In this document: positions 9,531 to 63,104 of the stretch, one piece after another | How the letters are laid out: the number at the start of each line of letters is the position of its first letter | Numbering within the stretch: the stretch's first letter is position 1 | From: Microthrixaceae bacterium | GTDB taxonomy: Bacteria; Actinomycetota; Acidimicrobiia; Acidimicrobiales; Microtrichaceae | Direction: 5' to 3' | Assembly: GCA_019694615.1 (NCBI GenBank) | Contig: JAIBBP010000264.1 | Location: 958-64,957, forward strand | Length of the DNA stretch: 64,000 nt | Position numbers and translations under genes: made by a program | The notes under the pieces: generated by a model | What the model was told of the DNA's origin: nothing | The model's database searches: none | Seen by the model: only the letters and a program-made list of their open reading frames with translations

Positions 9531-9609
<79 letters not shown>

Positions 9610-24524: not shown

Positions 24525-24682
24525 GGGTCACCTCCTGGGTCGATGCCTCGTCGGCATCCTCGGGAGGGAGCGCTAGGTCGAACAGCGAGAGTTGTTCGGA
24601 GGGATTGCTGCGAGCGCTCCGAGCGCGTGCCATCACGCTACCCCCACCATCTCGCGGCCACCGAGCACCGACGGTGCCCGCA

Positions 24683-25006: not shown

Positions 25007-26838
25007 GCCGTCCGCCCCTCTTCGCCGGCGGCCGTCGCGGCCCGCTTCGCCAGGTGCCGGTTGCGATAGAAGGGCCGCGTGCGCACGTGCGCTGGCGGCA
25101 GGGTGCCGTGCACCAGCAGCGCGTCACCGGGTCGCATCTGCCGCAGCACGTGCGCGGGGGCGAGGGGCACACGAGTGGTGGAGAACTGGTCCGAGCCGCC
25201 GCTGATCCGCTCGGCCGCCGAGTGGGATCGGGTGTCGACCTCGGCCTCGCCGAGCACACGATCGACGTATTGGATCGACGCCGGGTCCGACAGGCCCGCG
25301 TAGAACACCTTCGTCAGGTGGTTGGTGAGGATCGTGTCCGACGCCTTGCCGTAGGCGACCTCGATCTGCGCGAGCGACTGCCAGATCGTCACCAGCAACA
25401 CCCCGAGCCCGGCGAGGGTCGAGGCGTACTCCGGCAACGATCGCAGCGGCGTGTTCCCGGCCTCGTCGATCACCACCAGCAGCGGCGGGTCGAGGGCCTT
25501 CCCGGTGGCGGCGACGTGTCGGTACGCCTGGTTGATGAGGTCGTTGAGCAGCCCGCCGAACGCCGGGGCCAGACGGCGTTGGTCCTCGATCGGCGAGCAG
25601 AGATACACCGTGTTGGACCCCGACAGCAGCCACGGCAGGTCGACCCCGATGAATCCGCTCTTCGCGTTCTTGCCCTTCGGTGACCGCGCTGACGCGGCCA
25701 CACCGGGATCGGTCCAGGGCCAGATCACGGTCTGAGCTGTGGCGTAGATGGAAGAGCGAGTCCTCTCCTCCATCTCCCACACCGACACCAGGCCCTTGGC
25801 GACCTCGACCGCACCTCGGGAGACCGCTGCGTTGTTCGAGAGGTTCAACGAGTCGAGCGCGGCGCGGACCTCACCGGGGCCGAGCTCGCCAGGCCGGTCC
25901 TGGGTGAGCACCCACTCGCAGACCGCGTCCATGTCCCGATGGGCGTTGTGCGCAACGAACAGCAGGCCCGACAACAGGATCTCGGCCTGCGCCAACCAGA
26001 AGTCCATCCCGCCCTCGACGCCACCCCGAGGGGCGGCATCGCATAGCGCCCTCGCTGCCCGCTGCGCGCCCACGACGGTCCCGGCCTGTTGCAGAGGCGA
26101 CCACAGGGCCGAGGTGCCTTTCGGTGTGGTCGATGACGTTGGGTCGTAGACGCGAACGTCGCCGAGGGTTGAGCGCCACCCCTGTGTTGTGGACAGCAGG
26201 TCGGCCTTGACCGACGACAGCACCGCGGGACCGTCCCACTCGAGGATGCCCGCGACAGCAGCAGTGGTCTTGCCCGACCTGGACGGTCCGACCAGCGCCA
26301 CTGCACCGCGATCTCCCCGACGGGAGCGACGCGCCGACCTACCAGCTCGGCCCTGAGTTCGAGGCGGCGGCGACTCGGTGGCGACCAGGCGTCGGCCGAA
26401 GCGAGCAAGGATCAGCCGACCTGGCGTTGGACCCGACACAAGCAGCGGGTCAAGGTCTCGGCGCTTCGCGAACTTCGTCCTTCCATCGACGCCGAGGGGG
26501 CGACGCTTGGCGGTCCCCACCTTCGAACGGGTCAGCCACCGGACGACGAGCGCCACCGCGCCCCCGATGGCGATGGCCGCCAAGACGGTGCAGAGCCAGT
26601 AGAGCGGCGCACCCGGCAGGGCCTCGGCGTAGGGCTCGGCCCAGGCTTCAGCAGGCGCGCTCAAGTTCGCCGGAAGGCGCGGTGCAGCATCAGCAGCGGC
26701 GGCGAACGGCAGGTGCCCACCGCCCGAGACGGCGAGCGCCAGCCACGCGCCCGCCCACACCGCACCAACCAGCGCCAGCGCGATGCCGGCGACGATGATC
26801 ACGAGCAGCTCGAAGCCGCCGACACCTTCGCGTTCCAT
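25003..26838 (-). CDS. type IV coupling protein (VirD4/TraG/TraD family)
   Basis: Two N-terminal TM segments, Walker A GPSRSGKTT, Walker B LLVVIDEAGN. The ATG at 26838 is two codons inside the GTG used by the ORF track. Confidence 0.9.
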   Translation of the reverse strand: MEREGVGGFELLVIIVAGIALALVGAVWAGAWLALAVSGGGHLPFAAAADAAPRLPANLSAPAEAWAEPYAEALPGAPLYWLCTVLAAIAIGGAVALVVRWLTRSKVGTAKRRPLGVDGRTKFAKRRDLDPLLVSGPTPGRLILARFGRRLVATESPPPRTQGRAGRSARRSRRGDRGAVALVGPSRSGKTTAAVAGILEWDGPAVLSSVKADLLSTTQGWRSTLGDVRVYDPTSSTTPKGTSALWSPLQQAGTVVGAQRAARALCDAAPRGGVEGGMDFWLAQAEILLSGLLFVAHNAHRDMDAVCEWVLTQDRPGELGPGEVRAALDSLNLSNNAAVSRGAVEVAKGLVSVWEMEERTRSSIYATAQTVIWPWTDPGVAASARSPKGKNAKSGFIGVDLPWLLSGSNTVYLCSPIEDQRRLAPAFGGLLNDLINQAYRHVAATGKALDPPLLVVIDEAGNTPLRSLPEYASTLAGLGVLLVTIWQSLAQIEVAYGKASDTILTNHLTKVFYAGLSDPASIQYVDRVLGEAEVDTRSHSAAERISGGSDQFSTTRVPLAPAHVLRQMRPGDALLVHGTLPPAHVRTRPFYRNRHLAKRAATAAGEEGRTA

Positions 26839-26844
26839 ACCCAC

Positions 26845-26860
26845 GTAGGCCCCTCGGCGA
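26845..26860 (-). promoter_or_regulatory. conserved motif TCGCCGAGGGGCCTAC-N6-ATG (instance A)
   Basis: Read on the minus strand, the motif ends 6 nt before the coupling-protein ATG. The same motif and spacing occur at 36149-36157 and 49896-49910. Confidence 0.45.
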
Positions 26861-26972
26861 GGCGAAACTTCGCGGGCGAGATCAGCCGTTGTGGATGAGT
26901 GTCATGAGGACGAATCGCGCGGCGCCTACCGCTGTCGGCCCGTGCGGAGGGGCTTGTCCGGCGCCGGGACTA

Positions 26973-27761: not shown

Positions 27762-27787
27762 GGGTAGGCCCGCAGCCGGGCCTACCC
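27762..27787. terminator. stem-loop GGGTAGGCCCG-CAGC-CGGGCCTACCC
   Basis: Perfect 11-bp stem located 55 nt downstream of the Shedu-like gene stop. It also contains the GGGCCTAC core in both orientations. Confidence 0.4.
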
Positions 27788-27842: not shown

Positions 27843-29108
27843 TCAGTCGGCGAGGAACTCGAGGTCGGGCTGCAAGCGAGCGTCGCGTTGGAACAGCGCC
27901 GCGTTGGCCGCTGGAACCCCTTGGAACGTGATGGCAGCACGGAGCCTGTTGAGGAAACGGTCGTAGGTCATGACCTCCACACGACTCTCCACTGCGATGG
28001 TCTGCCTAACCGCACTGGCGTTCTCGTTCAGGAGGTGCTCGCGTCCGACGATGAGGTAACCGTCAGCACGAGGACTGATGTCGTACAGACCAAGTCCGCC
28101 GGCCGACCGCGGGGATTGGGCCTTGTGCAGGTTGCGTTCGAGCCACGTACGCCAGTCCTGGATCTGAGCGAGCCCGATCCGTGCGTGTTTCTCCAGAAGG
28201 TTCTGCGACTTGACCGTTGTCGAAGATCGAGGCGTTTCAATCTCGACAAGCACCCAGCGGACGCCGTTGGAATCGGCGTCAGCAACGACGAAGTCGGGTA
28301 CGTACTCGTCGCCGAGCCGGGGCTGGCCAACGACATACCGATCGGGTCCTCGGACGAGCGACGCCAGCAGTTCTGGATGGCCCTCCAAGAACGCCTGGAT
28401 CGGCTTCTCGTCCTTCGCGGTTTCAATGGTGAGTTCAAGTTCATCGACTTGGTCGATCGTTGCTCCCACAGGGGTGTGGAAAGGCGCGAGGTCTCTGTGC
28501 TTCGCCAGGGACCACGTTCGTCCCGGCCGGCCGATCGAACGATTGAGGGCCGCCTGCCTCTTCGCCTCCGCGTTCACGCCCTGCCTTGAGGCTCGTAAGG
28601 CCATCTCGATGAGGTCGGGGTAGGCCCATCGCCCTCGCCCGTGAAACCACACGCGTCCGTGTCGGTCGACCGAGCTGACCATCTCCAGCCAGTCGTCGCC
28701 TCGGTCAGGTCGTCGGACAAGGTCGCCTGGTTCAGGCTTCAGCCGCTTCAGGTTCGCTGATCGGCGGCGCATCAGGAAGTACGACACCCACGCATGCAGT
28801 TCCTCGGCCGATCGCGGGGATGGGGTCTTCCGGCCGGAGGCACTGGCGAGATCTTCGAGCCATTCAAGTGCGCCATCCCCCTTGATCGGGCGAGGCTGCG
28901 TCTGCAGAGACTCTCCGAGCGCGTCTCGCAGGCGCGCCGCTGCCACCACGAAGGGGAGACCCCTCAACGACACGCCAGCAATCGCCGCAAGCTTCTGCTG
29001 CTCGGGTGTTGCGGTGCCGATGGCGCGATCGAGGTTCTGCACTGCCGCGAGCCAGGTCCCACCCGTCATGCCAAGACCATACGAGGCAGCAACGCCTTGG
29101 CTCTTCAC
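27843..29108 (-). CDS. Shedu-like (DUF4263-like) PD-(D/E)xK-fold protein
   Basis: The C-terminal half has IQAFLEGHPELL ... YVPDFVVAD ... WVLVEIETP ... AQIQDWRTWLERN, which parallels the SduA/DUF4263 core as I recall it. The expected E-x-K reads E-I-E-T. Confidence 0.5.
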   Translation of the reverse strand: MKSQGVAASYGLGMTGGTWLAAVQNLDRAIGTATPEQQKLAAIAGVSLRGLPFVVAAARLRDALGESLQTQPRPIKGDGALEWLEDLASASGRKTPSPRSAEELHAWVSYFLMRRRSANLKRLKPEPGDLVRRPDRGDDWLEMVSSVDRHGRVWFHGRGRWAYPDLIEMALRASRQGVNAEAKRQAALNRSIGRPGRTWSLAKHRDLAPFHTPVGATIDQVDELELTIETAKDEKPIQAFLEGHPELLASLVRGPDRYVVGQPRLGDEYVPDFVVADADSNGVRWVLVEIETPRSSTTVKSQNLLEKHARIGLAQIQDWRTWLERNLHKAQSPRSAGGLGLYDISPRADGYLIVGREHLLNENASAVRQTIAVESRVEVMTYDRFLNRLRAAITFQGVPAANAALFQRDARLQPDLEFLAD

Positions 29109-36048: not shown

Positions 36049-36091
36049 GAGGGAACCTCCTCGGAAGCGGTGAGACGTTGTCGTCACCCCC

Positions 36092-36107
36092 GTAGGCCCC
36101 TCGGCGA
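36092..36107 (-). promoter_or_regulatory. conserved motif TCGCCGAGGGGCCTAC (instance B)
   Basis: Same 16-mer as instance A, here 37 nt upstream of an SD-led ATG. Back to back with instance D in a 115-bp divergent region. Confidence 0.45.
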
Positions 36108-36148
36108 TCGAAAACTCTCCACGCGTCCGCGAAGAATCCGCGCGTCAC

Positions 36149-36157
36149 GGGGCCTAC
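36149..36157 (+). promoter_or_regulatory. conserved motif GGGGCCTAC-N6-ATG (instance D)
   Basis: The motif ends 6 nt before the wall-hydrolase ATG at 36164. Confidence 0.45.
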
Positions 36158-36163
36158 CTGGGC

Positions 36164-37300
36164 ATGAAGCTCCCAGCAGCGGCCGCACTCGCCTGCCTCG
36201 TGACCATCGGGGGGTTCACCTCCCTGCCGATCCTCGCCATCGGTGTCGGCGGCACGTCACCACCCGGTTGTGGGGAGGTCGGCGAGGTCGCCGACGACGG
36301 CACCCCCAGCATCCTCGGCCCCTCAGCCCTGAGGGTGAGCGGCCTGCGCGCCTGGTGGAACAGCACCGGCCGCGGCCAGCCGCCGCGCCTTCGCATCGCC
36401 ATCGAGGACCTCATCGCGCTCTACGTCACCGAAGGCGACGCCGAAGGAGTCCGAGGCGACGTGGCCCTCGCCCAAGCGGTGCTGGAGACGGGCCACTTCA
36501 CCAACAGCGACACCGCCATCAACAACTTCGCCGGAATCGCCCACTACGACGGCACCGCGTCCGGGTCCGGGTTCGCCGATCCGATCATCGGCGTGCGCGC
36601 GCAGATCCAGCTGCTGAAGAAGTACGCACTCGGCAACGACGCTCCGCTCGCCAACCCCAACGTCGCGCCGCGGGCTGGGGCATCCGCGACGACGTGGGGT
36701 GGCCTCGCCGGGACGTGGGCGTCAGCAACGACCTATTGGACCTCGCTCAGCTCGGTGTACGAGTCGATGCTCACCCACGCAGGCTCGACGCCCGACCCAG
36801 CCGACCCCTTCGCGTCACTCGGTCCACTGACGTGTGGAAGCGGGGACCTCGCCGTCAGCGGCGACTATGCCCTACCGGTCGAACGGCGCTGGTACGACGA
36901 GAACCCCCGCTGGTTCACCAAGCCCCACCACGACTACCCGGCCGCCGACATCCCCGTGCCCGTCGGGACACCGCTCTACGCCGTCACCAACGGCGTCGTC
37001 GTCGGGACGCCGACGAGCGGGAAGTGCGGGATCGGGGTCATCTTCAACGGCGACGACGGAGCCCAGTACACCTACTGCCACGGCAACCCCGGCACCCAAG
37101 CTGTCGCGATCGGTGACCGCGTCAACGTCGGGCAGCGCCTCCTCGACAGCGCCTCCACGGGCAAAAGCACCGGACCCCACCTCCACTTCGGCATCCGCAT
37201 CGACGGCACCCAACGTTGCCCGCAGCCGTTCTTCGTCGCGATCGCCGACGGTCAACCCCTCGCACCGCAGGGTCTCCCCACGAGCGGCTGCTCCTACTGA
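36164..37300 (+). CDS. secreted cell-wall hydrolase (glucosaminidase-like domain + M23 peptidase)
   Basis: Signal-like N-terminus, LETGHFTNSDTAINNFAGI (glucosaminidase-like), M23 motifs HHDYPAADI and GPHLHFGIRIDG. Confidence 0.85.
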   Translation: MKLPAAAALACLVTIGGFTSLPILAIGVGGTSPPGCGEVGEVADDGTPSILGPSALRVSGLRAWWNSTGRGQPPRLRIAIEDLIALYVTEGDAEGVRGDVALAQAVLETGHFTNSDTAINNFAGIAHYDGTASGSGFADPIIGVRAQIQLLKKYALGNDAPLANPNVAPRAGASATTWGGLAGTWASATTYWTSLSSVYESMLTHAGSTPDPADPFASLGPLTCGSGDLAVSGDYALPVERRWYDENPRWFTKPHHDYPAADIPVPVGTPLYAVTNGVVVGTPTSGKCGIGVIFNGDDGAQYTYCHGNPGTQAVAIGDRVNVGQRLLDSASTGKSTGPHLHFGIRIDGTQRCPQPFFVAIADGQPLAPQGLPTSGCSY

Positions 37301-38252: not shown

Positions 38253-41200
38253 TCACATCGAAGCCCTGAGCTCGATCCGCAACTGTTCGATGGCATCGGC
38301 CGGATCACCGAGCTTGGCTTGGACGAGAGCGTCGGTGTGTTCTTTGTAGACCTTCTCGGCTCCGACGCGGTCGTCGGCGGCGAAGTGCGCCCGCATGAGC
38401 GACTCGACCACCCCGCTGTTGAGCGGGATCGCATGGACAATGCGGCGAAGCATGGAGATCGCTTCCGCGGGTTCGCCGAGGTCGAGGTGCATGGCGGCAC
38501 ACGCCTGCGCGACCCCCGCGACTCGTTGCTCCCAGGTCGTCGCGTAGTGCTCGAAGTCGACCCAGCCGTAGGAGTTCCGAGCGGCGTTCGAGTAGGTGAA
38601 CGGTTTGCCGGTGACCAGGTCGAGCGCGGCGCGGTAGTGAACGATCGCCTCAGCCGGTTCAAGGTTGGCGGCACGGTGGACGTGCCAGTCGAAGACCTCG
38701 AGGTCGGTTCGTAGGCGCGGTCCGGCGACATAGGTGCCCTTGCGGTTGGCCGGTAGGTGCTGGGACCCGATCGCTGCGCGAGCCTCGGTCATGGTGTCGT
38801 GGAGTCGCTTGATGTGGGAGGCCCCGTCGGAGCCGAACCAACACGCCTCCTCGAGGCGCTCGGTGCTGACAGATCGCTTCAGTGCGATGTAGGCCACGAC
38901 CGCTGTCGCCTTCGGCTTGACGGGTCGGTCGCCATCGACGGCGACGTCGCCGAGCAGTCGAACGAGCACGTCGAAGTCCGGCGGTGAGTCGTCGTGCTCC
39001 TCATCGGCGTCGTCGCTGGTGGCTTTGTGCGCAGATGTCGTGGAGCCGTTCGACGACACGAGGCTTTCGTACTCGCCGAGCAACTCCTCCATCACGAGTT
39101 GTTCTTCGGGGCTGTCAGCAGCGACGACGATCCGGCTGAGGTCGGCGAGCTCGTCGCCGTCGAGGACTTGGGGTGTGCAGGCGAGGTCGACGGAGTCGAA
39201 GTTGAGCGTGTCTGGCTCGCACCGCAGGTTCGCCACGGCCGCGTCGAAGTCGCCGACGACCACCACAGCAACCGCTGAGGGCTGGCACGAGCGCAGCTCG
39301 TCGGCCAGTTCCGGGGGAGGTGGCCGGTCGGCCACGATGGCGATAGGGACGAGTGCGTCGTGGTCCGGGTCATGTCCGCGGCCGACGAAGGCGTTCGCCC
39401 AGTCGGAGTCCGCCAACGCGTCATGCGATTGTCTGGCCCATGCCCGGACGTCCTCGGCGATGCCGTCCCAGGAGTCGACCACGGTGAGGTGCTCCAGGAC
39501 CTTCGCGTCCTCGTTCACGACTTCGCCGATGCCGATGACCCGCAGGGTCTCAGCGAGGGGACTGAGCGTCAGCTCCGTGAGGATGGAGCGCGCGAGGTCC
39601 TCAGCGGTCGCCCGGTCGCCGGTCAAGGCGGTGAGTCCGTCAGCTTCGAGGTCGAGGTACATCTGCGCGTCATCTTCGGGTTGGCCGACGGTCACCAGGA
39701 GCGGCGCGGGGGTCAGCGGCCCCTCATACTGGTCGTCTGGGTCTGGAGGCTCGGCGAGGCTCCAGACGGTGCCATCGTCGGAGCTGACCCAGCCGGAGGG
39801 TGCGTTGGTGTCGGGCTGGTCGATGAGGACTTCGAGGCTGTCGGCGGCGTGGCGGACCATGCGGGGCCGTCTGTCGGAGGCAGCTGTGGCGAGAGCGGCG
39901 GCGAGCCGACCGAGCGCTCCTTGTAGATCGTCGATGCGCTCCTCGTCGGCCTGGGCGACGATCGCCTGGTGCAGCTCGCGTCGATCGAGCTGTGTGCGGC
40001 CGGGGAGTTGGCCTTCGTGGTTCTCGATGTAGTGGCGGCGGCGGCGGTCGATGAGGCGTTTGAGCCCGACGGCGAGCGCGATGCTCGTGAGCCCTCCGAG
40101 CGCTACCGCGATCGGCAGGGTGTCAGACGACTCCCGATCGTCCGTGTCGTCGGCCGCGGCCGCGGCCGGTGTCGCCGTGGTCGGCGACACTGTCGGAGTC
40201 GACGTCGGCGCAGCGGTGGTCGGTGTCGGGGTCGTCGTGGATGAGGTGGGCGGCTCTGGTGCCTGCGCTTCGGGTTCCGCTTCTATGGGCAGTTCGACGG
40301 GGACCGGGGTCTCCTCGGCTTCAGGTGGGGCGAGTGGTTCGTGGCCCGTGGGCGGAAGGTCGATGACCTGGCCGGGAAGGATCAGGCTGGGGTTGCCGGG
40401 TTGGACGTAGCGGTCCTGGTTGGTGTCGATGACCTCTTGCCAGTAGGGGGCTACTTCTGCGTCGGTCGCGTCTCGGCCGAGGTCGTCCTCGAGTCGGTCC
40501 TCGGAGATGTCCCAGAGGTTGTCGCCTCGCTCCACCACGATGCTCGAGCGTTCCGTGGCCGCCGATGTTGGCTGGCCAGGATCTGCCACCGGGTCCGGTG
40601 ACGCGGGTTCGCCGGTCGCGTCGGCGGGCAACAGGAGGACCCAGCCGGTGTGGAGGGTGTCGTCTCCGGCGGTGATGACACTCCCGTCGGGAAGGACGCG
40701 TCCAGCGTTGAGGTCGAGGATCTCCTGCCATCGGAACCCGTCGCCGAGCGTGCGTTCAGCGATGGCCCAGTAGCTGTCGTGGCGCTGCACGGTGACGGTC
40801 GGATGTCCGGTACCCGGTGTGGGCGCTGGCGTGTCGACTACGTGTCCGATGAGCTGGATCTGGTGTCCGTCGACGCTGTTCAGGAACGGGGACTGCGTGT
40901 GGACGGCGGCGTCGACCATCGCTTCGGCGACGACCGGTATCGGTTGGGGTGCAGAGGCGTGGGCGCGGACTGGCTGCACGGTGGAAGCGATCATCAGCAC
41001 ACCGGCAACGAGTCGGGCAGCGGTGATCTGGAAGCCGGGAACGACTGGCAGGCGGATCGCCTGGCGTCCTCGGGCCACGGCGAGTACCTCGACCGCGAGC
41101 GCGAGGGCGAGCTGCGCCCAGGCGAGCCATGCGATGACGGCGAGGGTGTTGACGACGACCTGGTCGCTCACGCCGGTGCGGGCAGCGCTTTCCAAGGAGT

Positions 41201-41336
41201 CGACGCTCGGGAGGCTGGCGGGGAGCGGCCAGCCCACGAGGGTTGCCAGCAGGACGGGCACGCCGACGAGCAGGAAGAGGGTTGCGGCCAGCGAGGTGAT
41301 GCCTCGTAGGAGCCGAGCGGATCGTCGGCCGGTCAT
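38253..41336 (-). CDS. large membrane protein with LysM-like repeats and C-terminal BTAD/TPR-like domain
   Basis: N-terminal TM helices, two LysM-like blocks (HDSYWAIAERTLGDG ... LLLP and VERGDNLWDISE ... LPGQVIDLP), a Thr/Pro linker, a further TM segment, and a C-terminal SARP-type BTAD-like helical region. Confidence 0.7.
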   Translation of the reverse strand: MTGRRSARLLRGITSLAATLFLLVGVPVLLATLVGWPLPASLPSVDSLESAARTGVSDQVVVNTLAVIAWLAWAQLALALAVEVLAVARGRQAIRLPVVPGFQITAARLVAGVLMIASTVQPVRAHASAPQPIPVVAEAMVDAAVHTQSPFLNSVDGHQIQLIGHVVDTPAPTPGTGHPTVTVQRHDSYWAIAERTLGDGFRWQEILDLNAGRVLPDGSVITAGDDTLHTGWVLLLPADATGEPASPDPVADPGQPTSAATERSSIVVERGDNLWDISEDRLEDDLGRDATDAEVAPYWQEVIDTNQDRYVQPGNPSLILPGQVIDLPPTGHEPLAPPEAEETPVPVELPIEAEPEAQAPEPPTSSTTTPTPTTAAPTSTPTVSPTTATPAAAAADDTDDRESSDTLPIAVALGGLTSIALAVGLKRLIDRRRRHYIENHEGQLPGRTQLDRRELHQAIVAQADEERIDDLQGALGRLAAALATAASDRRPRMVRHAADSLEVLIDQPDTNAPSGWVSSDDGTVWSLAEPPDPDDQYEGPLTPAPLLVTVGQPEDDAQMYLDLEADGLTALTGDRATAEDLARSILTELTLSPLAETLRVIGIGEVVNEDAKVLEHLTVVDSWDGIAEDVRAWARQSHDALADSDWANAFVGRGHDPDHDALVPIAIVADRPPPPELADELRSCQPSAVAVVVVGDFDAAVANLRCEPDTLNFDSVDLACTPQVLDGDELADLSRIVVAADSPEEQLVMEELLGEYESLVSSNGSTTSAHKATSDDADEEHDDSPPDFDVLVRLLGDVAVDGDRPVKPKATAVVAYIALKRSVSTERLEEACWFGSDGASHIKRLHDTMTEARAAIGSQHLPANRKGTYVAGPRLRTDLEVFDWHVHRAANLEPAEAIVHYRAALDLVTGKPFTYSNAARNSYGWVDFEHYATTWEQRVAGVAQACAAMHLDLGEPAEAISMLRRIVHAIPLNSGVVESLMRAHFAADDRVGAEKVYKEHTDALVQAKLGDPADAIEQLRIELRASM

Positions 41337-41731
41337 GGTTGGGCCTCGTCGACGGCGGTGGCGGTCTCGCGAACGACGATGGTCCGGTCTGCGCCGGGGA
41401 TGATCCGCATGGGTTGGACGCGGGTGACCGTCACGGTGATCGACGCGTCGGTGACGGTTGCGGTTCCGGTGGCGCCGACGCGCTGGAGGTAGGCGACCGC
41501 AGCGGCTTCGGCGGCGACGGGATCAAGTCGTGGTTCGTTCGCGGAGCGGAGGTGGTCGAGGTCGATCTGCTGGGCACCAGCTCGCGCAGCTCGCTCGGCG
41601 TCGTTGCGAGCGGCGTTGTGTGCAGCGATGACCTGGCCGCCGTCGTAGGCCATACCTGCGACCAGGACGAGTGCAGTGGCGACGACCGCGACGAAGGCGG
41701 TGATGCTTCCTCGCTCGTCGCGGGGGTTCAC
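41333..41731 (-). CDS. TadE/TadG-like pseudopilin
   Basis: N-terminal RDERGSITAFVAVVATALVLV prepilin-like segment. GTGA overlap with the upstream gene. Confidence 0.7.
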   Translation of the reverse strand: MNPRDERGSITAFVAVVATALVLVAGMAYDGGQVIAAHNAARNDAERAARAGAQQIDLDHLRSANEPRLDPVAAEAAAVAYLQRVGATGTATVTDASITVTVTRVQPMRIIPGADRTIVVRETATAVDEAQP

Positions 41732-42153
41732 GATCCGCTCCGGTAGGTGTCGATGACCTCGGTGGCCGTGGCGGTGAAGGTGCGTCGTCCGGGAACGCCG
41801 AGCAGCGTGACGTCGGCCATTGAGGCTTCGCAGGCGACGGTGACGGTGACGGTGCCGCCTGGGGCGAAGTCCGTGGTGTCGACGGTGGTGGTGAGGGTGA
41901 GGCAGGGCACGCCGGCGGCGGCGAGGTTGGCGGTAGCGGACGCTTGTGCGTCGTCGGTGGCGTCGGCGGGGTGTTGGCGGAGGGATGCGGCGCGGGCGGC
42001 GTCGGACGCGGCGCGTTCGACGTTGCCGTCGGCCTCGGAGACCTTGCCCGCGTAGACCACGAGGAGCACGAGGAACAGCAGAGCGGGTGCGATGACTGCG
42101 ACCTCGACAGCGATCGATCCTCGTTCGTCGCGGAGTCGTCCTCGCAGGGTCAT
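41728..42153 (-). CDS. TadE-like pseudopilin
   Basis: N-terminal RDERGSIAVEVAVIAPALLFLVLL. Confidence 0.75.
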   Translation of the reverse strand: MTLRGRLRDERGSIAVEVAVIAPALLFLVLLVVYAGKVSEADGNVERAASDAARAASLRQHPADATDDAQASATANLAAAGVPCLTLTTTVDTTDFAPGGTVTVTVACEASMADVTLLGVPGRRTFTATATEVIDTYRSGS

Positions 42154-42536
42154 CGTTCTGGCTCGGGGATGAAGCGTTCGACCGGGGCGGTGCTGCGGGC
42201 GGTGACCGCCCACTCAAAGCCAGGGACGAGCTGGGGTGCGTCACCGTGGACTTCGACGGTGACCGCGGTTGGCTCGCGGGACACGGTGATGGTGACGTTG
42301 TCGAGGTTGCCTGACTGCGCGAGGTACGACGACGCGGCGTCCTCGCCGTCGCGGGCGGTGCCCGACGAGACCTGGGCGGCGTCGACGGCCTCGGCCGCGG
42401 CGGCGTTGGCGACCTGCTTGGCATGCCACCACAGCCCGTACTGGACGATGAGCATGATCCAGAACAGGACGACCGGGAACAAGATGGCGACCTGGATAGT
42501 CGTCATCCCTCGTTCGTCACGCGCCCTGTGGCCCAT
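42150..42536 (-). CDS. TadE-like pseudopilin
   Basis: N-terminal RDERGMTTIQVAILFPVVLF. Confidence 0.75.
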   Translation of the reverse strand: MGHRARDERGMTTIQVAILFPVVLFWIMLIVQYGLWWHAKQVANAAAAEAVDAAQVSSGTARDGEDAASSYLAQSGNLDNVTITVSREPTAVTVEVHGDAPQLVPGFEWAVTARSTAPVERFIPEPER

Positions 42537-42542
42537 GGGGGC

Positions 42543-42752
42543 TCAGCCGCCGGGCTGCTCGGGTGTCGGGATGTTGTCGGCGTTGCCCTTCGCGGCGTTG
42601 TAGATGATGCCGAGCACGACGATGGCCGCGCCGACGAGGAGGAAGGTGATGACGGCGACCTCGGTGGTCGTCATCCCTCGTTCGTCGTGCGGGTCGATGC
42701 CGAGCCTCGCGCAGCAGTAGGCGAAGAGGATTCTGGGGTCGGGTACGGGCAT
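42543..42752 (-). CDS. flp: Flp-type prepilin
   Basis: 69 aa with leader ...HDERG followed by MTTTEVAVITFLLVGAAIVVLGII (Gly cleavage site, Glu at +5, hydrophobic helix). Confidence 0.7.
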   Translation of the reverse strand: MPVPDPRILFAYCCARLGIDPHDERGMTTTEVAVITFLLVGAAIVVLGIIYNAAKGNADNIPTPEQPGG

Positions 42753-42777
42753 GGTGGCCTCCTTGTGTTGGCTCCGT

Positions 42778-43689
42778 TCAGGGCTGGGGTCCGCTGACCG
42801 AGGTGATCTGGACGACTGCCGGGTAGGCGATGAACACGAGGAACCCGAACAGCAAGACGGCCACCGGGACCGTCATGCGCTCGGTGGCCGCTTCCGCGGC
42901 TGCTTCGGTTTCGGCCACTTGGTGACCTCGGAGGGTGTCGGCCTTCGCGGCGAGGGAGGCCCGAATGCGTGCGCCGTGGGATCCGGCGAGCGACACGCTG
43001 GCGGCGAGTTCGGCGAGTTCGTTGATGCCGAGGCGCGCGTCGAGCTGGGCGAACGTGTCCCATGGAGACTGGCCGGTGAGCCGGGCGCGTCGCAGCTCCG
43101 CGCGGATGGTCTGGTAGCCCCAACCATCCCCGGCGTCCGCGGCGGCGTGCAGCGCTGTCTCGATGCCCGCTCCTCCGGCGAGCAGCACGTTCACGAGGTC
43201 CAGGTAGGAGGACAGGGTGTGGCGGAAGGCTCGCCTGCGCTTGTCGGCTTCGTCACGCAGCAACATGTCAGGCAGGAGGAACCCGGCGACGGCGGTGACC
43301 AGGGAGAAGATGGCGATGAGTCCGAGGGGAGCAGGGATCCCCATGACCACCAGGGCAGCGGCGGCGAGGTTGGGGACGAGGAGTCCGGCGACGGCTCCGA
43401 GGAGCTTGTCGAACGCGTGCCGTTCCGGTGTGCGCCCGACCAGCTCGAGTTCTTGGTGGTGGCGTTCGGTGTCGTAGCCGAGCGATTCGACCAGGCGTCG
43501 TGCCGTGCTGCCGATCCGGTCGAACTCGTCGCGCGTTGTCGGTGCCGCCGTGTCGATGGCGATGCCAGGCCGAGCGAGTCCGGCGAGGACCGCGTCGATG
43601 CTCGGAGGCCGGGGGGCGAGCGCTCGCCACGTGAGCAACACGCCGAGCCCGACACCGGCGCCGAGCAGGACCATGACCACGGCCGTCAT
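42778..43689 (-). CDS. tadC: Tad platform protein TadC (T2SS-F family)
   Basis: Polytopic protein with T2SSF-like helices. Overlaps tadB. Confidence 0.8.
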   Translation of the reverse strand: MTAVVMVLLGAGVGLGVLLTWRALAPRPPSIDAVLAGLARPGIAIDTAAPTTRDEFDRIGSTARRLVESLGYDTERHHQELELVGRTPERHAFDKLLGAVAGLLVPNLAAAALVVMGIPAPLGLIAIFSLVTAVAGFLLPDMLLRDEADKRRRAFRHTLSSYLDLVNVLLAGGAGIETALHAAADAGDGWGYQTIRAELRRARLTGQSPWDTFAQLDARLGINELAELAASVSLAGSHGARIRASLAAKADTLRGHQVAETEAAAEAATERMTVPVAVLLFGFLVFIAYPAVVQITSVSGPQP

Positions 43690-44549
43690 GTCTCTGCTCC
43701 GATGCTGGTGGGCCCTCCGGCCCGTGCGGTGAACCGTTCGGGCAGCTCGATGTCGGCCATGCGGGTGAGGAGCCAGCCGCCGGCAGCGAAGATGCCACCG
43801 ACGATCGCCAGCATGACTTGGCCGCCAGCGCTGTCGTAGACGGTGAGGTAGTCGCGGTTGGCGATGGCGAGGAACACCACGGCGGCGATGACGACGCCGA
43901 CGATCACCTTCGTCGCGGTGCGGACGCGAGTCCGACCGACCTCCACTCGGATGCGCATCCGTGCGTCTCCTCGGGTGGCCTCGGCGAGGCGGGACAGAAG
44001 CCCGGAGAGATCAGCGGCTTCCATGCGGGATGCGATCACGAGGGCCGCGACGACAAGGTCGCCGGAGGGGTGGTCGAGATCCTCGCCGAAGGCGACGAGT
44101 GCCTCGGGGAGTCGTTCGTGGTCGAGGCGTCTCACCATCGTGCGTACCTCGCTGGAGATCGGTGGTGGCGCGACAGGGGCGGTGGCGACGATCGCCTCTT
44201 CGAGGCCGGACGCGGCGACGATCGAGTCGCGGATCATCTCGGTCCACGAGGCGATGGCCTCGGTGCGGTCGATGGCCTGCTGTCGAGCGGCCTTGCCGCC
44301 GAGGATTCCAGGCAGGACGAGGACGGCTACGGCGGCCAGGATCCCGCCGACGAGCCACCCGGTCGCGGCCATCGCCAGAAGCGCCGCCACGGCCGCAACC
44401 GTGACCTTCGGCAGAAGCGAGCTGGAGCGCACGCGCTGGACATAGCTCGACGGTGCGTCGAAGAGTCGGCGACCGGTGAGGCCAGCGAGGACCAAGAGCA
44501 GCCCCAGGGCTACGCCTGCGGCGAGGGCTGCGAAGACGAGTGTGCTCAT
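43686..44549 (-). CDS. tadB: Tad platform protein TadB (T2SS-F family)
   Basis: Start trimmed to MSTLVFAAL (ATGA overlap with the tadA stop). T2SSF-like topology. Confidence 0.8.
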   Translation of the reverse strand: MSTLVFAALAAGVALGLLLVLAGLTGRRLFDAPSSYVQRVRSSSLLPKVTVAAVAALLAMAATGWLVGGILAAVAVLVLPGILGGKAARQQAIDRTEAIASWTEMIRDSIVAASGLEEAIVATAPVAPPPISSEVRTMVRRLDHERLPEALVAFGEDLDHPSGDLVVAALVIASRMEAADLSGLLSRLAEATRGDARMRIRVEVGRTRVRTATKVIVGVVIAAVVFLAIANRDYLTVYDSAGGQVMLAIVGGIFAAGGWLLTRMADIELPERFTARAGGPTSIGAET

Positions 44550-45898: not shown

Positions 45899-46605
45899 GA
45901 CGCCGCCACCGCTGTCGTCGGCTCAAGCAGCACCGAACTCAGCGCAACTCCGAGGGCACCCACCGCACGAGCGAGCTGTGAACGGGCCAGATGGGAGCGA
46001 GAGCCGCCCACCCGCAGCACCTCGGCGGCATCGGGGTCGTTGGGCAGCTGACCGATCACCGAAACCCCAACGGCCCGCTCGACATCTTCCACCCCGTAGG
46101 GGCCGTCGCCGACGAGCACGACGGCCACCCGACCCCGGACCGCCTGGCGCAGTGTCGGCACGAGATGGGTCAACGCGACGAGCTGATCGGCGACCGGGTT
46201 CACGAACACCGCCAGGAGATCGGAGGCGGCGACGATCGGTACCGGTGAGCGGAGACGTCCAGCGTCTACGATCGCGACTCCGTCAGCCGCAACGAGCTTG
46301 TGAGTGATCCGCTCTCCCGCGGTCCGCCACACCGACGTGCTCGCAGCGGGGGCATCGGGACCCACCAGCACGGGGACGCCACCGGCATCCTGCGCGTGTG
46401 CTCGCCAACCGCCGTCAGCGTCGGGCCCGTCGGCCGCGAACGTCGTCAGGCCAGGTTCACGGCCGAGCCCGTATCGCACCGCGAGAACCCCGCCGTCGAG
46501 GTCAGCCTCGACCACCAGGGCATCGGTGAAGGTCGACGCGAGCAGGATCGCGGTGGTCGTCACACCGGGTGCGCCCCGGACCGAAGCCAAGCTGATGACC
46601 TTCAT
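45895..46605 (-). CDS. TadZ/CpaE-like degenerate ParA/MinD-fold protein
   Basis: N-terminal VISLASVRGAPGVTTTA replaces a canonical deviant Walker A. Position and operon coupling match TadZ. Confidence 0.55.
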   Translation of the reverse strand: MKVISLASVRGAPGVTTTAILLASTFTDALVVEADLDGGVLAVRYGLGREPGLTTFAADGPDADGGWRAHAQDAGGVPVLVGPDAPAASTSVWRTAGERITHKLVAADGVAIVDAGRLRSPVPIVAASDLLAVFVNPVADQLVALTHLVPTLRQAVRGRVAVVLVGDGPYGVEDVERAVGVSVIGQLPNDPDAAEVLRVGGSRSHLARSQLARAVGALGVALSSVLLEPTTAVAAS

Positions 46606-47273: not shown

Positions 47274-47275
47274 TG

Positions 47276-49037: not shown

Positions 49038-49715
49038 TCAGCTCGCTAGGGGGAGTTCACGGAGGCGAGCCTCGGCGCGCCACCGGCGATGCCACAGCAC
49101 TTTGAGCGACACCTGCTGCTCGGCGGCGAGCTCGGCCATGGACTCTCCACCAACCCGGCTGCGCAGGATCGTCGCGAGGACCTCGTCGGATATCCCCGAC
49201 GAGGAGCTTGCGGTGGCGAGCTCTTCGAGGAAGGCGTGGCTGACGAACTGCTCCTCTGCGGAGGGCGCCTCTGTCGCCACACACGATCCGATCTGGCGCC
49301 TAGCCTTGTCCTGCTCGCGGCGGTAGCGCTTGCGGACGTCGAGCAGGACGTTGGCCGACACCGATCCGGGTCGGCTCGCGGGGTAGGTGCGGATGCGTTC
49401 CCATGCGAGCCTGACGATGTCGTCGATCGCGTCGTCGTCGCGCCCGACACGGTGGGCAAGGTTGCACAGACCGCCGAGCAGTCCTTGGAGCAGAGTTCGG
49501 GCCGCGAGATGATCAGCGGGCGCCAAGGCTGCGAGTGCCCGTCGGACCGCTGGCCCATCGTCGGGGTTGAAGCCGAGGTCGATCACGTCGTCGAGGTCTG
49601 CGGCTGACGTGAGCACTGGGTGGGTAGCCGACCAGCGCATCAGCGCTCGCCTTGCGGATGGAGAGCCGGCGATCGCCGACCACTCCCTGTTGAGGGATCG
49701 CAGGATCTCTGCCAT
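49038..49715 (-). CDS. sigma-70-family-like (ECF-like) factor
   Basis: AGGAGG 6 nt before the ATG. Region-2-like IVRLAWERIRTY and region-4 HTH ESMAELAAEQQVSLKVLWHRRWRAEARLREL. Confidence 0.55.
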   Translation of the reverse strand: MAEILRSLNREWSAIAGSPSARRALMRWSATHPVLTSAADLDDVIDLGFNPDDGPAVRRALAALAPADHLAARTLLQGLLGGLCNLAHRVGRDDDAIDDIVRLAWERIRTYPASRPGSVSANVLLDVRKRYRREQDKARRQIGSCVATEAPSAEEQFVSHAFLEELATASSSSGISDEVLATILRSRVGGESMAELAAEQQVSLKVLWHRRWRAEARLRELPLAS

Positions 49716-49760
49716 CGGAAGCCTCCTGGTGTCGTTGAGCACCAGCAGGGTCCGCGTGGC

Positions 49761-49855: not shown

Positions 49856-49895
49856 TCCACGGGATTTCGCTGCTGCCAACGCGCGCTATCGACCC

Positions 49896-49910
49896 CGCCG
49901 AGGGGCCTAC
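49896..49910 (+). promoter_or_regulatory. conserved motif CGCCGAGGGGCCTAC-N6-ATG (instance C)
   Basis: Ends 6 nt before the ATG at 49917. Confidence 0.45.
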
Positions 49911-49916
49911 GGGGGC

Positions 49917-50462
49917 ATGGAACGTGATCGGATACTGAGGTTCACCCCCGTCGACCACCCCGACGACCGGGTGCAACGTGTCGGCTTCGATCTGACCGAC
50001 CCCTACGTCGAGCAGTGCTGGTCGGCTGTCGTCGGGCCGAGCTCGACCTTGCTGCTCCGTCGGATGCCGGACCTGTGGGCCGTCAACTCGCCCCGCGAGA
50101 TCCAGGCCACTGAGCTGTCTCGTTCGCTCGGCCTCGGTCGCGGTGTGGGCGAGCGCAGCCGCCTCATGAGCACCATGAATCGGCTCGTCCAGTACCGGCT
50201 TGCCCGGCCAGCTCCGGACGGCGCCGGGCTGGAGGTCTTCCGCCAGGTCTCACCACTCACCCCCCATCAGCTCGACCGGGTGCCGCAGTTGACCCGCGAC
50301 ACCCACGAACGGCTCTTCGGCACCCACCTCGAGCAGATCGACGACCTGGCCCAGCACCAGGCGAGCGTCGCGTCGATCACGGCTCGTCTCGACCGCATCC
50401 AGAACAGTTCCGGCCGACCAACCAACGGGCTCGCGCCTCAGGGCAAGGCGCTCGGGCGATGA
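49917..50462 (+). CDS. hypothetical DNA-binding-like protein, paralog of 18424-18879
   Basis: Shares blocks with the 18424 protein. First gene of the relaxase operon, directly downstream of the iterons. Confidence 0.6.
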   Translation: MERDRILRFTPVDHPDDRVQRVGFDLTDPYVEQCWSAVVGPSSTLLLRRMPDLWAVNSPREIQATELSRSLGLGRGVGERSRLMSTMNRLVQYRLARPAPDGAGLEVFRQVSPLTPHQLDRVPQLTRDTHERLFGTHLEQIDDLAQHQASVASITARLDRIQNSSGRPTNGLAPQGKALGR

Positions 50463-53952: not shown

Positions 53953-53980
53953 GAATCCCCGCGAAGTCCTGGCCCGTCAA

Positions 53981-53989
53981 AGGGCCTAC
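53981..53989 (+). promoter_or_regulatory. conserved motif AGGGCCTAC (instance E)
   Basis: One-mismatch copy 37 nt upstream of the SD-led ATG at 54026. Confidence 0.35.
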
Positions 53990-54025
53990 ATAGGCAGACC
54001 CCACCCACCGACCGAGGAGGACCCG

Positions 54026-54235
54026 ATGTCCACCACCGAGACCGACGCCCCGGCAGAAGTCCTCACCATCGACGAAGCCGCAGCCATCCTGCGCATCAGC
54101 CGCAACGCCGCCTACGCCGCGGCCCGCGAGTGGCGAGCCACCGGCGGAAAGGTGGGTATCCCCTGCATCGAGATCGGCCGCACCCTCCGAGTCCCCCGCG
54201 CCGAGTTCGAACGGCTCCTTGGCCGCCCGGCGTGA
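54026..54235 (+). CDS. excisionase-family / MerR-like HTH DNA-binding protein
   Basis: 69 aa. LTIDEAAAILRISRNAAYAAAR ... IPCIEIGRTLRVPR is the excisionase-type HTH pattern. GAGGAGG SD upstream. Confidence 0.7.
   Translation: MSTTETDAPAEVLTIDEAAAILRISRNAAYAAAREWRATGGKVGIPCIEIGRTLRVPRAEFERLLGRPA

Positions 54236-63025: not shown

Positions 63026-63104
<79 letters not shown>

What the first reader, a model, noticed from the sequence alone, without database searches (positions are those of the whole stretch)
36085..36166. Shared GGGGCCTAC-N6-ATG motif in front of the conjugation transcription units
The 9-mer GGGGCCTAC, often extended to CGCCGAGGGGCCTAC, occurs upstream of five ICE units in the sense orientation. 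The units are the coupling protein (26845-26860, minus strand), the VirB2-like/T4SS operon (36092-36107, minus strand), the wall hydrolase (36149-36157), the 49917-relaxase operon (49896-49910) and, with one mismatch, the excisionase-like gene (53981-53989). In three cases the ATG follows after exactly 6 nt (GTGGGT, CTGGGC, GGGGGC), leaving no room for a Shine-Dalgarno sequence. In the other two cases the same offset is followed by a 30-40-nt leader with a strong GAGGAGG. This fits a promoter whose transcription start lies 7 nt downstream of the motif, giving leaderless mRNAs in three cases, although the motif does not resemble the usual TANNNT -10 element. The ICE-encoded sigma-like protein (49038-49715) is a candidate reader. 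A transfer repressor binding over the start sites is the alternative.
Basis: seen in the sequence. Interest (0 to 1): 0.7.

Follow-up and report, generated by a model that had tools for sequence, protein, structure and literature searches.

The report
Shared promoter of ICE conjugation genes
Five conjugation and excision operons of a 53-kb mobile element in an Acidimicrobiia-type genome carry the same two-part promoter (GCGAAG-N17-GCCTAC), placed so that three genes would be transcribed without any leader. The promoter is most likely read by a divergent ECF-type sigma factor that the element itself encodes.

Summary
GGGGCCTAC occurs four times (0.33 expected) and AGGGCCTAC once. Each copy lies in sense orientation just upstream of an ICE backbone unit: coupling protein, T4SS operon, wall hydrolase, 181-aa gene plus relaxase, and excisionase.

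The last six bases (GCCTAC) sit in the -12..-7 slot. A second hexamer (GCGAAG; weaker GGAGAG or GCGCGC at two sites) lies 17-18 nt upstream. The base 7 nt downstream is always a purine preceded by a pyrimidine, and in three units it is the A of the ATG.

About 70 related elements keep both hexamers and the 6-nt distance to the start codon, while the spacer sequence diverges. Distant lineages use GCCTAG, GCGTAG or GCTTAC, and the same variant recurs at several promoters of one element.

The neighbouring 225-aa protein has no Pfam hit. A profile of 75 diverse relatives matches only ECF sigma factors in the PDB (E 9e-6), and fold search agrees.

Best reading: an ICE-encoded ECF-like sigma with its own promoter class, switching on transfer genes, partly as leaderless mRNAs. 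This is an undescribed member of a known kind. It is supported by comparative evidence only; no transcription start has been mapped.

The parts
26838..26873 (-). Coupling-protein (VirD4) promoter. -35 GCGAAG at 26873-26868, 17-nt spacer, -10 GCCTAC at 26850-26845, N6 gtgggt. Predicted +1 is the A of the ATG at 26838 (leaderless).
   Evidence: Orthologues in L062, L063, L065, L186 and L187 keep GCGAA(G/T)-N17-GCCTAC-N6-ATG.
36085..36120 (-). T4SS operon promoter. -35 slot GGAGAG at 36120-36115, -10 GCCTAC at 36097-36092, N6 gggggt. Predicted +1 is G at 36085, followed by a 37-nt leader with GAGGAGG and the ATG at 36048.
   Evidence: 14.5 bits, weak -35. Orthologues keep TGGAGAGTT and GGCCTAC, or GGCTTAC in L064, L065, L188 and L189.
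36129..36166 (+). Wall-hydrolase promoter, divergent from the T4SS promoter. -35 GCGAAG at 36129-36134, -10 GCCTAC at 36152-36157, N6 ctgggc. Predicted +1 is the A of the ATG at 36164 (leaderless). The product starts with a signal-peptide-like MKLPAAAALACLV.
   Evidence: Eight orthologous loci keep GCGAA(G/C)-N17-GCCTAC-N6-ATG, or the CGCGGG variant.
49881..49919 (+). Promoter of the 181-aa gene plus relaxase operon. -35 region GCGCGC at 49881-49886 (18-nt spacer here, 17 nt in L006 and others), -10 GCCTAC at 49905-49910, N6 gggggc. Predicted +1 is the A of the ATG at 49917 (leaderless).
   Evidence: The -10 hexamer followed by N6 and ATG/GTG is found in 26 loci by a strict pattern, plus 4 loci with GCGTAG.
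53961..54028 (+). Excisionase-gene promoter, directly after the relaxase stop codon. -35 GCGAAG at 53961-53966, -10 GCCTAC at 53984-53989, N6 ataggc. Predicted +1 is A at 53996, followed by a 30-nt leader with GAGGAGG and the ATG at 54026.
   Evidence: Conserved in L006, L010, L016 and L017. Relatives that use a different -10 hexamer carry that same variant at this promoter too: GCCTAG in L021, L029 and L036, GCGTAG in L025.
49038..49715 (-). Gene for the 225-aa divergent ECF-type sigma factor, the proposed reader. It has a ~60-aa N-terminal extension followed by sigma2-like and sigma4-like parts. It is the first gene of the minus-strand unit that continues into the Tad-pilus genes.

Best explanation
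The motif is the -10 half of a bipartite, ICE-specific promoter: GCGAAG(-35)-N17-GCCTAC(-12..-7)-N6-R(+1). RNA polymerase carrying the element's own divergent ECF-type sigma factor (49038-49715) recognises it.

When that sigma is made, it switches on five backbone units together: coupling protein, T4SS operon, cell-wall hydrolase, 181-aa protein plus relaxase, and excisionase. In three units transcription starts on the A of the ATG, so the mRNAs are leaderless, as is common in Actinomycetota. In the other two units the same start is followed by a 30-37-nt leader with a strong Shine-Dalgarno sequence.

The sigma gene has no copy of this promoter upstream, so it sits at the top of the cascade. 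It is probably controlled separately, through the iteron-like repeats and the hairpin that sequesters the Shine-Dalgarno sequence in its upstream region.

Shown: the sequence architecture, its conservation, and the sigma homology. Inferred: the start sites, which protein reads the promoter, and the cascade.
For: (1) Enrichment and placement. There are 4 exact 9-mers against 0.33 expected and 3 full GCGAAG-N17-GCCTAC matches against 0.37 expected. The five sites score 14.5-44 bits against 8.3 for the next best position. All five are in sense orientation at the 5' ends of backbone units.

(2) Geometry. The hexamer ends 6 nt before +1 and the spacer to the -35 hexamer is 17-18 nt. Position -1 is a pyrimidine and +1 a purine at 5 of 5 sites. 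This matches the geometry mapped for mycobacterial promoters, where the -10 element lies 7-12 bp upstream of the start, 85% of starts are purines, and C or T is the commonest base at -1 (PMC3898074).

(3) Phylogenetic footprint. Orthologous promoters of the coupling protein, hydrolase, T4SS operon, 181-aa gene and excisionase keep both hexamers and the N6-ATG distance. The spacer differs in sequence and, at one promoter, by 1 nt in length. The -10 element followed by N6 and a start codon is present upstream of the divergent gene in about 30 of 33 loci whose sigma is at least 38% identical.

(4) Concerted variants. Other lineages use GCCTAG (L021, L029, L030, L036, with -35 GCGAGA or GTGAGA), GCGTAG (two promoters in L025; L022, L028) or GCTTAC with a GCGG-type -35 (L064, L188). 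Each variant recurs at two or more promoters of the same element. One MAG carries both a GCCTAC-type and a GCCTAG-type element (L011 and L020).

A profile of 75 diverse family members matches only ECF sigma factors in the PDB: RpoE 2q1z at E 8.6e-6 over residues 62-227, CnrH at 8.7e-6, and M. tuberculosis SigE at 2.5e-4. All top Foldseek hits are ECF sigmas. Sigma70_r4 or r4_2 is found in 6-7 of the 75 members. In the loci where the neighbours were examined the gene lies divergent from the 181-aa/relaxase operon, whose start codon carries the promoter in 26 loci by a strict pattern plus 4 with GCGTAG.
Against: No transcription start, RNA polymerase binding or sigma activity has been measured.

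The window protein itself has no Pfam or NCBIfam hit. The AlphaFold model is of low confidence (pLDDT 66), and the Foldseek E-values are weak (8e-3 or higher).

The hexamers lack the usual ECF AAC and CGT signatures. The sigma gene is not preceded by its own promoter, whereas most ECF sigmas are autoregulated. No anti-sigma factor was identified.

I found no sigma residue that tracks the -10 variants. The concerted changes could therefore partly reflect shared ancestry, or a host factor.

Two of the five sites have poor -35 hexamers (GGAGAG, GCGCGC). One orthologue (L189) and L030 show N7 rather than N6.

Specificity to the ICE could not be tested on a whole genome.
Confidence: 0.7

Rival explanations
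1. It is a genuine bipartite, partly leaderless promoter, but a host-encoded alternative sigma factor reads it. The ICE would then tie transfer to a host stress or developmental regulon, and the ICE sigma-like protein would do something else, for example control the Tad-pilus genes.
For: There is no copy of the promoter upstream of the ICE sigma gene, which is atypical for an ECF sigma. No residue-level covariation between the sigma and the -10 variant was found. ICEclc is a precedent for dependence on a host sigma, RpoS (PMC5812530).
Against: -10 and -35 variants change together at several promoters within an element and differ between elements. Two variants occur in contigs binned to one MAG (L011 and L020). 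In the roughly 30 loci that carry the promoter it lies within about 130-430 nt of the sigma gene. No site was found in the roughly 10 kb of non-ICE DNA in the window, or elsewhere in about 966 kb of related loci beyond the backbone promoters.
Confidence: 0.17
2. The conserved block is an operator for an ICE-encoded repressor or activator that binds over the start sites. The true promoter elements would lie elsewhere or overlap it.
For: The conserved block extends beyond a hexamer, roughly GGGGCCTAC..GGGY. The ICE encodes several DNA-binding candidates: an excisionase-family HTH protein, a BTAD protein, and the unknown binder of the iterons.
Against: The motif has no dyad symmetry and is strictly co-oriented with the downstream gene at 5 of 5 sites and in all orthologues. 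There are two conserved blocks separated by a variable 17-18-nt spacer, and the distance to the start codon is fixed at 6 nt. That is promoter geometry, not operator geometry. No TANNNT or other alternative -10 element is available between the motif and the leaderless start codons.
Confidence: 0.08
3. The motif acts at the RNA level, as a 5'-UTR or translation-initiation signal that replaces a Shine-Dalgarno sequence at a fixed distance from the AUG. Alternatively, it is a chance or repeat-derived similarity with no function.
For: The distance to the ATG is fixed at 6 nt, and three genes have no Shine-Dalgarno sequence.
Against: Two units carry the same motif 30-37 nt upstream of a canonical GAGGAGG-ATG, so the motif is not tied to the start codon. 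GGGGCCUAC is not complementary to the anti-Shine-Dalgarno sequence. The -35 partner 17 nt upstream has no RNA-level rationale. Chance is excluded by the shuffles and by conservation across about 70 loci.
Confidence: 0.03

Closest known systems
ECF (group 4) sigma factor and cognate promoter pairs, e.g. R. sphaeroides RpoE, C. metallidurans CnrH, M. tuberculosis SigE/SigH/SigL
   Same: A two-domain sigma2-sigma4 protein, shown by profile hits at E about 1e-5 and by fold hits. The promoter is bipartite with a 17-18-nt spacer and a short, G/C-rich -10 element that lacks the A-11/T-7 of housekeeping promoters. It controls a small dedicated regulon. One lineage's -10 element (GCGTAG) contains the ECF-typical CGTA.
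   Different: The protein is too divergent for Pfam or NCBIfam to recognise. It has a ~60-aa N-terminal extension. The hexamers GCGAAG and GCCTAC are not the usual AAC and CGT. There is no autoregulatory promoter and no recognisable anti-sigma partner. It is encoded on an ICE and controls conjugation rather than envelope or oxidative stress. The 2021 ECF re-classification paper does not mention conjugation, plasmids or mobile elements (PMC7826278).
Leaderless housekeeping (SigA) promoters of Actinomycetota: TANNNT, 6 nt, then ATG/GTG
   Same: The geometry is identical. The hexamer ends 6 nt before a start codon whose first base is +1, with a purine at +1 and a pyrimidine at -1 (PMC3898074).
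   Different: The hexamer is GCCTAC (C at -11, C or G at -7) rather than TANNNT. It is accompanied by a conserved -35 hexamer, whereas mycobacterial SigA promoters show no -35 consensus.
Master activators of transfer regulons encoded by mobile elements: Tn916 Orf7/Orf8 and SXT SetCD
   Same: An element-encoded factor at the top of a cascade turns on excision and transfer operons, either through a shared promoter-proximal motif (SetCD) or by read-through from one activated promoter (Tn916) (PMC5812530; PMC4344509 listed).
   Different: Here the factor appears to be a bona fide sigma with its own -35 and -10 elements, rather than an activator of sigma70-dependent promoters. Each unit has its own copy of the promoter, in contrast to the read-through used by Tn916.
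Repressor systems of conjugative elements in Gram-positive bacteria (KorSA of pSAM2, ImmR of ICEBs1)
   Same: They control the promoters of transfer or excision genes.
   Different: By general knowledge of repressor operators (not checked in these papers), such sites are usually dyad-symmetric and bound by a dimer. This motif is asymmetric, directional, bipartite with promoter spacing, and at a fixed distance from the start codons.

Membership tests
Sigma70-family promoter (bipartite -35/-10) | Two conserved hexamers separated by 16-19 nt, with the downstream one ending about 6-7 nt before the start | tested here: met
   GCGAAG-N17-GCCTAC-N6-R at three sites, and 17-18 nt at the other two. The same arrangement is seen in 40 distinct orthologous sites.
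Sigma70-family promoter (bipartite -35/-10) | Transcription actually initiates at the predicted +1 | not testable with these tools
   No transcriptome or 5'-end data are available for this organism or element.
Actinobacterial housekeeping (SigA) -10 element | TANNNT, with A at -11 and T at -7 | tested here: not met
   The hexamer is GCCTAC (variants GCCTAG, GCGTAG, GCTTAC), with C at -11 and C or G at -7 in all sites.
ECF (group 4) sigma factor (the proposed reader) | Sigma2 and sigma4 domains only, with detectable homology to known ECF sigmas | tested here: met
   Profile A4 against PDB sequences returns almost only sigma factors; the one exception is the weakest of 11 hits (1s7o, E 1.5). RpoE 2q1z scores E 8.6e-6 over residues 62-227, covering both domains, and CnrH scores 8.7e-6. 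The top 50 Foldseek hits are nearly all sigma-factor chains, led by ECF sigmas. The window protein alone fails Pfam and NCBIfam.
ECF (group 4) sigma factor (the proposed reader) | Typical ECF promoter signature (-35 AAC, -10 CGT) | tested here: not met
   The -35 hexamer is GCGAAG or GCGAGA and the -10 hexamer is GCCTAC. Only the GCGTAG lineage contains CGTA.
ECF (group 4) sigma factor (the proposed reader) | Autoregulation: the cognate promoter lies upstream of the sigma gene | tested here: not met
   The weight-matrix scan finds no site on the minus strand upstream of 49715. The 200-nt upstream region instead holds direct repeats and a hairpin.
ECF (group 4) sigma factor (the proposed reader) | Co-encoded anti-sigma factor | tested here: inconclusive
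   The downstream 303-aa protein gives only low-complexity hits. No anti-sigma domain was found, and no dedicated search was made.
Repressor operator | Dyad symmetry, and function independent of orientation | tested here: not met
   GGGGCCTAC..GGGY is asymmetric. All five sites and all orthologues are co-oriented with the downstream gene.
Leaderless mRNA genes | The start codon coincides with the transcription start, and there is no Shine-Dalgarno sequence | tested here: inconclusive
   No Shine-Dalgarno sequence fits in the 6 nt. The ATG position and the N-terminal peptides (MEREG.., MERDR.., MK(R/L)P..) are conserved. The transcription start itself has not been mapped.

The most novel reading that the evidence does not exclude
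The 225-aa protein would found a large, uncharacterised, ICE-borne clade of ECF-like sigma factors (1384 clusters at 50% identity). These would recognise a -10 element lacking both A-11 and T-7 (GCCTAC, GCCTAG or GCGTAG) through a recognition mode not yet seen in sigma structures. Lineage-specific sigma/promoter pairs would be mutually orthogonal, so that several related ICEs could coexist in one cell without cross-activation. The sigma itself would be gated by a two-array iteron complex and by a hairpin sequestering its Shine-Dalgarno sequence, forming the on/off switch of the element.
Probability: 0.2. Interest if true: 0.7.

Novelty: new member of a known kind. Interest (0 to 1): 0.5.

Why it matters
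T4SS-type ICEs of Actinomycetota were catalogued in 2011 (PMC3218068). My searches found no description of their regulation.

This finding gives a concrete and testable model for a widespread family: one element-encoded sigma, one promoter class, five transfer units. It makes it possible to predict the transfer regulon from sequence alone. It fixes three leaderless start codons that gene callers tend to extend; the ORF listing, for example, starts the coupling protein at a GTG inside the promoter. It also offers candidate orthogonal sigma/promoter pairs for high-GC hosts.

A cultured species, Iamia majanohamensis (CP116942.1, locus L062), carries the same promoters, so the experiments are feasible.

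Tried and rejected
(1) Metagenome-wide scan with GCGAAG-N17-GCCTAC-N6-ATG. All were chance matches inside unrelated coding DNA and none resembled an ICE protein.

(2) PDB profile search with the shallow alignment A1 (20 sequences, at least 62% identical) found no sigma factor. Only the diverse alignment A4 did.

(3) Pfam on the window protein and on the members of A1 gave at best Sigma70_r2 in 2 of 20 members, at E 0.016. NCBIfam gave nothing.

(4) hhalign of A1 against a single bona fide ECF sigma from L063 was not significant (probability 0.14). It did align the expected region 4.2 helix.

(5) The AlphaFold model was poor (pLDDT 66, pTM 0.35). It was used only for the pattern of fold hits.

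(6) I looked for a sigma residue that tracks the TAC, TAG or CGTAG -10 variants and found no clean correlate.

(7) RNAalifold on the sigma 5'-UTR returned no structure. Counting pairs for a hand-specified helix gave moderate support.

(8) Rfam found only the two tRNA-Met copies.

(9) Literature searches for the motif, for ICE-encoded sigmas in Actinobacteria and for Acidimicrobiia ICEs found nothing relevant.

(10) I considered whether the palindrome at 27762-27787 is a sixth site. I rejected it because it has no -35 hexamer, no gene start at the right distance and a low matrix score.

(11) I considered that the motif might be an oriT or nic site. I rejected this because it occurs at five dispersed operon starts.
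Full report
**Context.** The window is high-GC DNA (about 68%). It carries an integrated element bounded by a 59-bp direct repeat, 9531-9589 and 63026-63084. The repeat is the 3' part of a tRNA-Met gene. A tyrosine integrase lies at 58639-59868.

The backbone of the element is as follows:
- VirD4-type coupling protein (25003-26838, -), followed by a 1909-aa SNF2/methylase protein
- a minus-strand T4SS operon starting at 36048: DUF6112, a 240-aa protein, a TrbL/VirB6-like protein, an SCO6880-family protein, a VirB4-like ATPase and a Toprim primase
- a divergent M23/glucosaminidase wall hydrolase (36164-37300)
- a long minus-strand unit headed by a 225-aa protein (49038-49715), running through Tad-pilus genes to a 1027-aa BTAD/LysM protein
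- a 181-aa gene (49917-50462) followed by a TrwC relaxase
- an excisionase-family gene (54026-54235)

Cargo includes Shedu and AbiEii. The closest relatives are in Microthrixaceae, Aquihabitans and Iamia, all Acidimicrobiia.

GGGGCCTAC occurs four times against 0.33 expected, and none of 100 shuffles reached four. The fifth site, AGGGCCTAC, is one of 22 one-mismatch hits and is not significant alone. Its context qualifies it. The ATG follows after exactly 6 nt at 26838, 36164 and 49917. At the other two sites, leaders of 37 and 30 nt containing GAGGAGG follow.

**The motif is the -10 half of a bipartite promoter.** Aligning the sites on the motif shows a second conserved hexamer. GCGAAG lies exactly 17 nt upstream of GCCTAC at the coupling-protein, hydrolase and excisionase sites. 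That is 3 matches against 0.37 expected, even with one mismatch allowed. The T4SS operon has GGAGAG in this slot, and the 49917 unit has GCGCGC with an 18-nt spacer.

If the A of the leaderless ATGs is +1, then GCCTAC occupies -12 to -7 and GCGAAG occupies -35 to -30. This is the canonical sigma70-family geometry. At all five sites -1 is a pyrimidine and +1 a purine. This matches the start-site context mapped in M. tuberculosis, where the -10 element lies 7-12 bp upstream of the start and a quarter of genes are leaderless (PMC3898074). The hexamer is not TANNNT, however, because C occupies -11 and C occupies -7. The principal sigma is therefore an unlikely reader.

A weight matrix built from 40 distinct orthologous sites scores the five window sites at 44, 42, 37, 29 and 14.5 bits. 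Nothing else in the window scores above 8.3 bits. The window sites were in the training set, so the informative result is the empty gap below them.

**Comparative evidence.** I fetched 61 genomic loci through the 225-aa protein and eight loci through the hydrolase. The hydrolase loci share the same backbone order, with different cargo (CBASS, toxin-antitoxin modules and others) inserted at the same places.

In the hydrolase loci, the hydrolase and coupling-protein genes keep GCGAA(G/C/T)-N17-GCCTAC-N6-ATG, while the 17-nt spacers differ almost completely. The T4SS operon keeps TGGAGAGTT ... GGC(C/T)TAC followed by a leader with a Shine-Dalgarno sequence.

Upstream of the orthologues of the 49917 gene, GCCTA(C/G)-N6-(A/G)TG is found in 26 loci by a strict pattern. 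Four more loci have GCGTAG, and L012 has a further variant, ACTTAC. This amounts to about 30 of 33 loci whose sigma is at least 38% identical and that have enough upstream sequence. An alignment of 13 such intergenic regions shows invariant GCGCG and GGCCTAC..CATG blocks separated by a variable spacer with a 1-nt length polymorphism. Exceptions with N7 exist, in the L189 coupling-protein promoter and in L030.

Two short conserved blocks at fixed distances from each other and from the start codon, with free sequence in between and strict co-orientation, are the signature of a promoter. They are not the signature of a dyad operator or an RNA element.

**Concerted variants.** More distant elements use other -10 hexamers, and each variant recurs at several promoters of the same element:
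- GCCTAG with -35 GCGAGA or GTGAGA (L021, L029 at three sites, L030, L036)
- GCGTAG (L025 at both its 181-aa-gene and excisionase promoters; L022, L028)
- GCTTAC or GCCTAC with a GCGG-type -35 (L064, L188)

Contigs binned to one MAG (Nocardioides sp. SMAG_U7460) carry a GCCTAC-type element (L011) and a GCCTAG-type element (L020). This pattern is what a reader encoded by, and evolving with, the element would produce. MAG binning and shared ancestry limit how much weight it can bear. I also found no single sigma residue that tracks the variants.

The 225-aa protein has no Pfam or NCBIfam hit, and a shallow profile found nothing in the PDB. It belongs to a large family, with 1384 clusters at 50% identity at E of 1e-3 or better.

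A profile of 75 diverse members hits only ECF sigma factors among PDB sequences. R. sphaeroides RpoE scores E 8.6e-6, aligned over residues 62-227, which covers both the sigma2 and sigma4 domains. CnrH scores 8.7e-6, and M. tuberculosis SigE scores 2.5e-4. Six or seven of the 75 members individually hit Sigma70_r4 or r4_2, and one hits Sigma70_ECF.

The AlphaFold model is weak (pLDDT 66). Even so, its top Foldseek matches are ECF sigma factors almost without exception: SigH, SigL, sigmaE, SigK, SigW and AlgU, with probabilities up to 1.0 but E-values of 8e-3 or higher. The protein is therefore a divergent ECF-type sigma with an extra N-terminal segment of about 60 aa.

Three typical ECF features are absent. 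The promoter lacks the AAC and CGT signatures, there is no autoregulatory promoter upstream of the sigma gene, and no anti-sigma factor is recognisable.

**Model.** The sigma gene heads the Tad-pilus unit and has no copy of the promoter. Its 200-nt upstream region contains no TA dinucleotide in the proximal 90 nt, so no TANNNT element is visible. It does contain arrays of 12-bp-period direct repeats (CGACCTCCCGyy) and a conserved hairpin that pairs the Shine-Dalgarno sequence with an upstream CCTCCT. I infer that the sigma is the master switch. Once made, it activates the five promoters, giving coordinated expression of excision, DNA processing, coupling, the channel and wall lysis.

Confidence that the motif is a promoter with the stated geometry is about 0.85. 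Confidence that the ICE sigma reads it is about 0.7. The rivals are a host alternative sigma (about 0.17), an operator for a regulator (about 0.08), and an RNA-level signal or chance (about 0.03).

**Novelty.** Alternative-sigma promoters, leaderless actinobacterial mRNAs and element-encoded master activators (Tn916 Orf7/8, SetCD) are all known (PMC5812530). I found no description of this ICE family's regulation, of this sigma clade or of this consensus. I file it as a new member of a known kind. It is of moderate interest because it makes the regulation of a widespread actinobacterial ICE family directly testable.

**Dead ends.** The single metagenome scan used too loose a pattern and returned only chance matches. 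Whole-genome ICE specificity therefore remains untested.

Noticed in passing
window 49761-49866 and 51108-51181: There are two arrays of 12-bp-period direct repeats of CGACCTCCCGyy (ACCTCCCG: 14 copies in the window against 5.2 expected). Array A lies between the sigma gene and the 49917 gene. Array B lies inside the relaxase ORF, where it encodes a Pro-rich linker (GPPARPP...). Both arrays are conserved in relatives and change together: CCTCCCG in L006, L008 and L017, and GTTCCCG in both arrays of L025 and L024. This points to DNA-level iterons for an unidentified binding protein that flank the 181-aa gene and the oriT-like region.
   Followed up: partly
window 49722-49752 (minus strand, 5'-UTR of the sigma gene): A conserved hairpin pairs the Shine-Dalgarno sequence AGGAGG of the sigma-like gene with an upstream CCTCCT. 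Across 19 diverged loci, 79% of cells are paired, against 38-63% for slid controls. One GC-to-CG compensatory pair occurs in 7 sequences. This may gate translation of the master regulator. Support is moderate only.
   Followed up: partly
window 50553-50577: A perfect 11-bp inverted repeat, GCAGGTTTCCC-tcc-GGGAAACCTGC, lies between the 181-aa gene and the likely relaxase start (GTG near 50604). It could be the oriT inverted repeat or a terminator/attenuator.
   Followed up: no
window 27762-27787: The perfect palindrome GGGGTAGGCCCG-cagc-CGGGCCTACCCC lies downstream of the Shedu gene and carries the GGCCTAC heptamer on both strands. It has no -35 partner and a low matrix score. It is probably a terminator hairpin, and its resemblance to the -10 element may be coincidental.
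   Followed up: partly
window 9531-9589 and 63026-63084: A 59-bp direct repeat, the 3' part of tRNA-Met, bounds an element of about 53.5 kb. The left 9 kb of the element (about 10-18.5 kb) carries metabolic cargo (SDR, flavin monooxygenase, metal hydrolase, TetR) rather than ICE backbone genes. It could be a second island in tandem.
   Followed up: partly
window 27843-29108, 54290-55162; loci L062, L065, L188: Related ICEs share cargo hot-spots, between the coupling-protein gene and the T4SS operon and after the hydrolase gene. These hold different defence systems: Shedu and AbiEii here, CBASS/SMODS plus patatin in L065, E2-CBASS in L062, and a kinase/helicase with PLD in L188.
   Followed up: no
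window 38253-49026: A complete Tad/Flp-type pilus gene set (TadE/G-like, two T2SSF, a T2SSE ATPase, a SAF/CpaB-like protein) and a 1027-aa BTAD/LysM protein form part of the conserved ICE backbone. They appear to be co-transcribed downstream of the sigma gene, which suggests a pilus-assisted mating step in this monoderm conjugation system.
   Followed up: no
window 24562-24647: ARAGORN calls an 86-nt tRNA-Ala(cgc) inside the 1909-aa SNF2/methylase ORF. Rfam does not confirm it, so it is probably a false positive.
   Followed up: partly
loci L042-L049 (Solirubrobacterales; sigma 32-33% identical): The most distant relatives of the sigma lack the GCCTA(C/G) motif. Their upstream regions carry different repeats (GCTGAC) and a divergent gene that has a leader. 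Their cognate promoter, if there is one, must differ.
   Followed up: no
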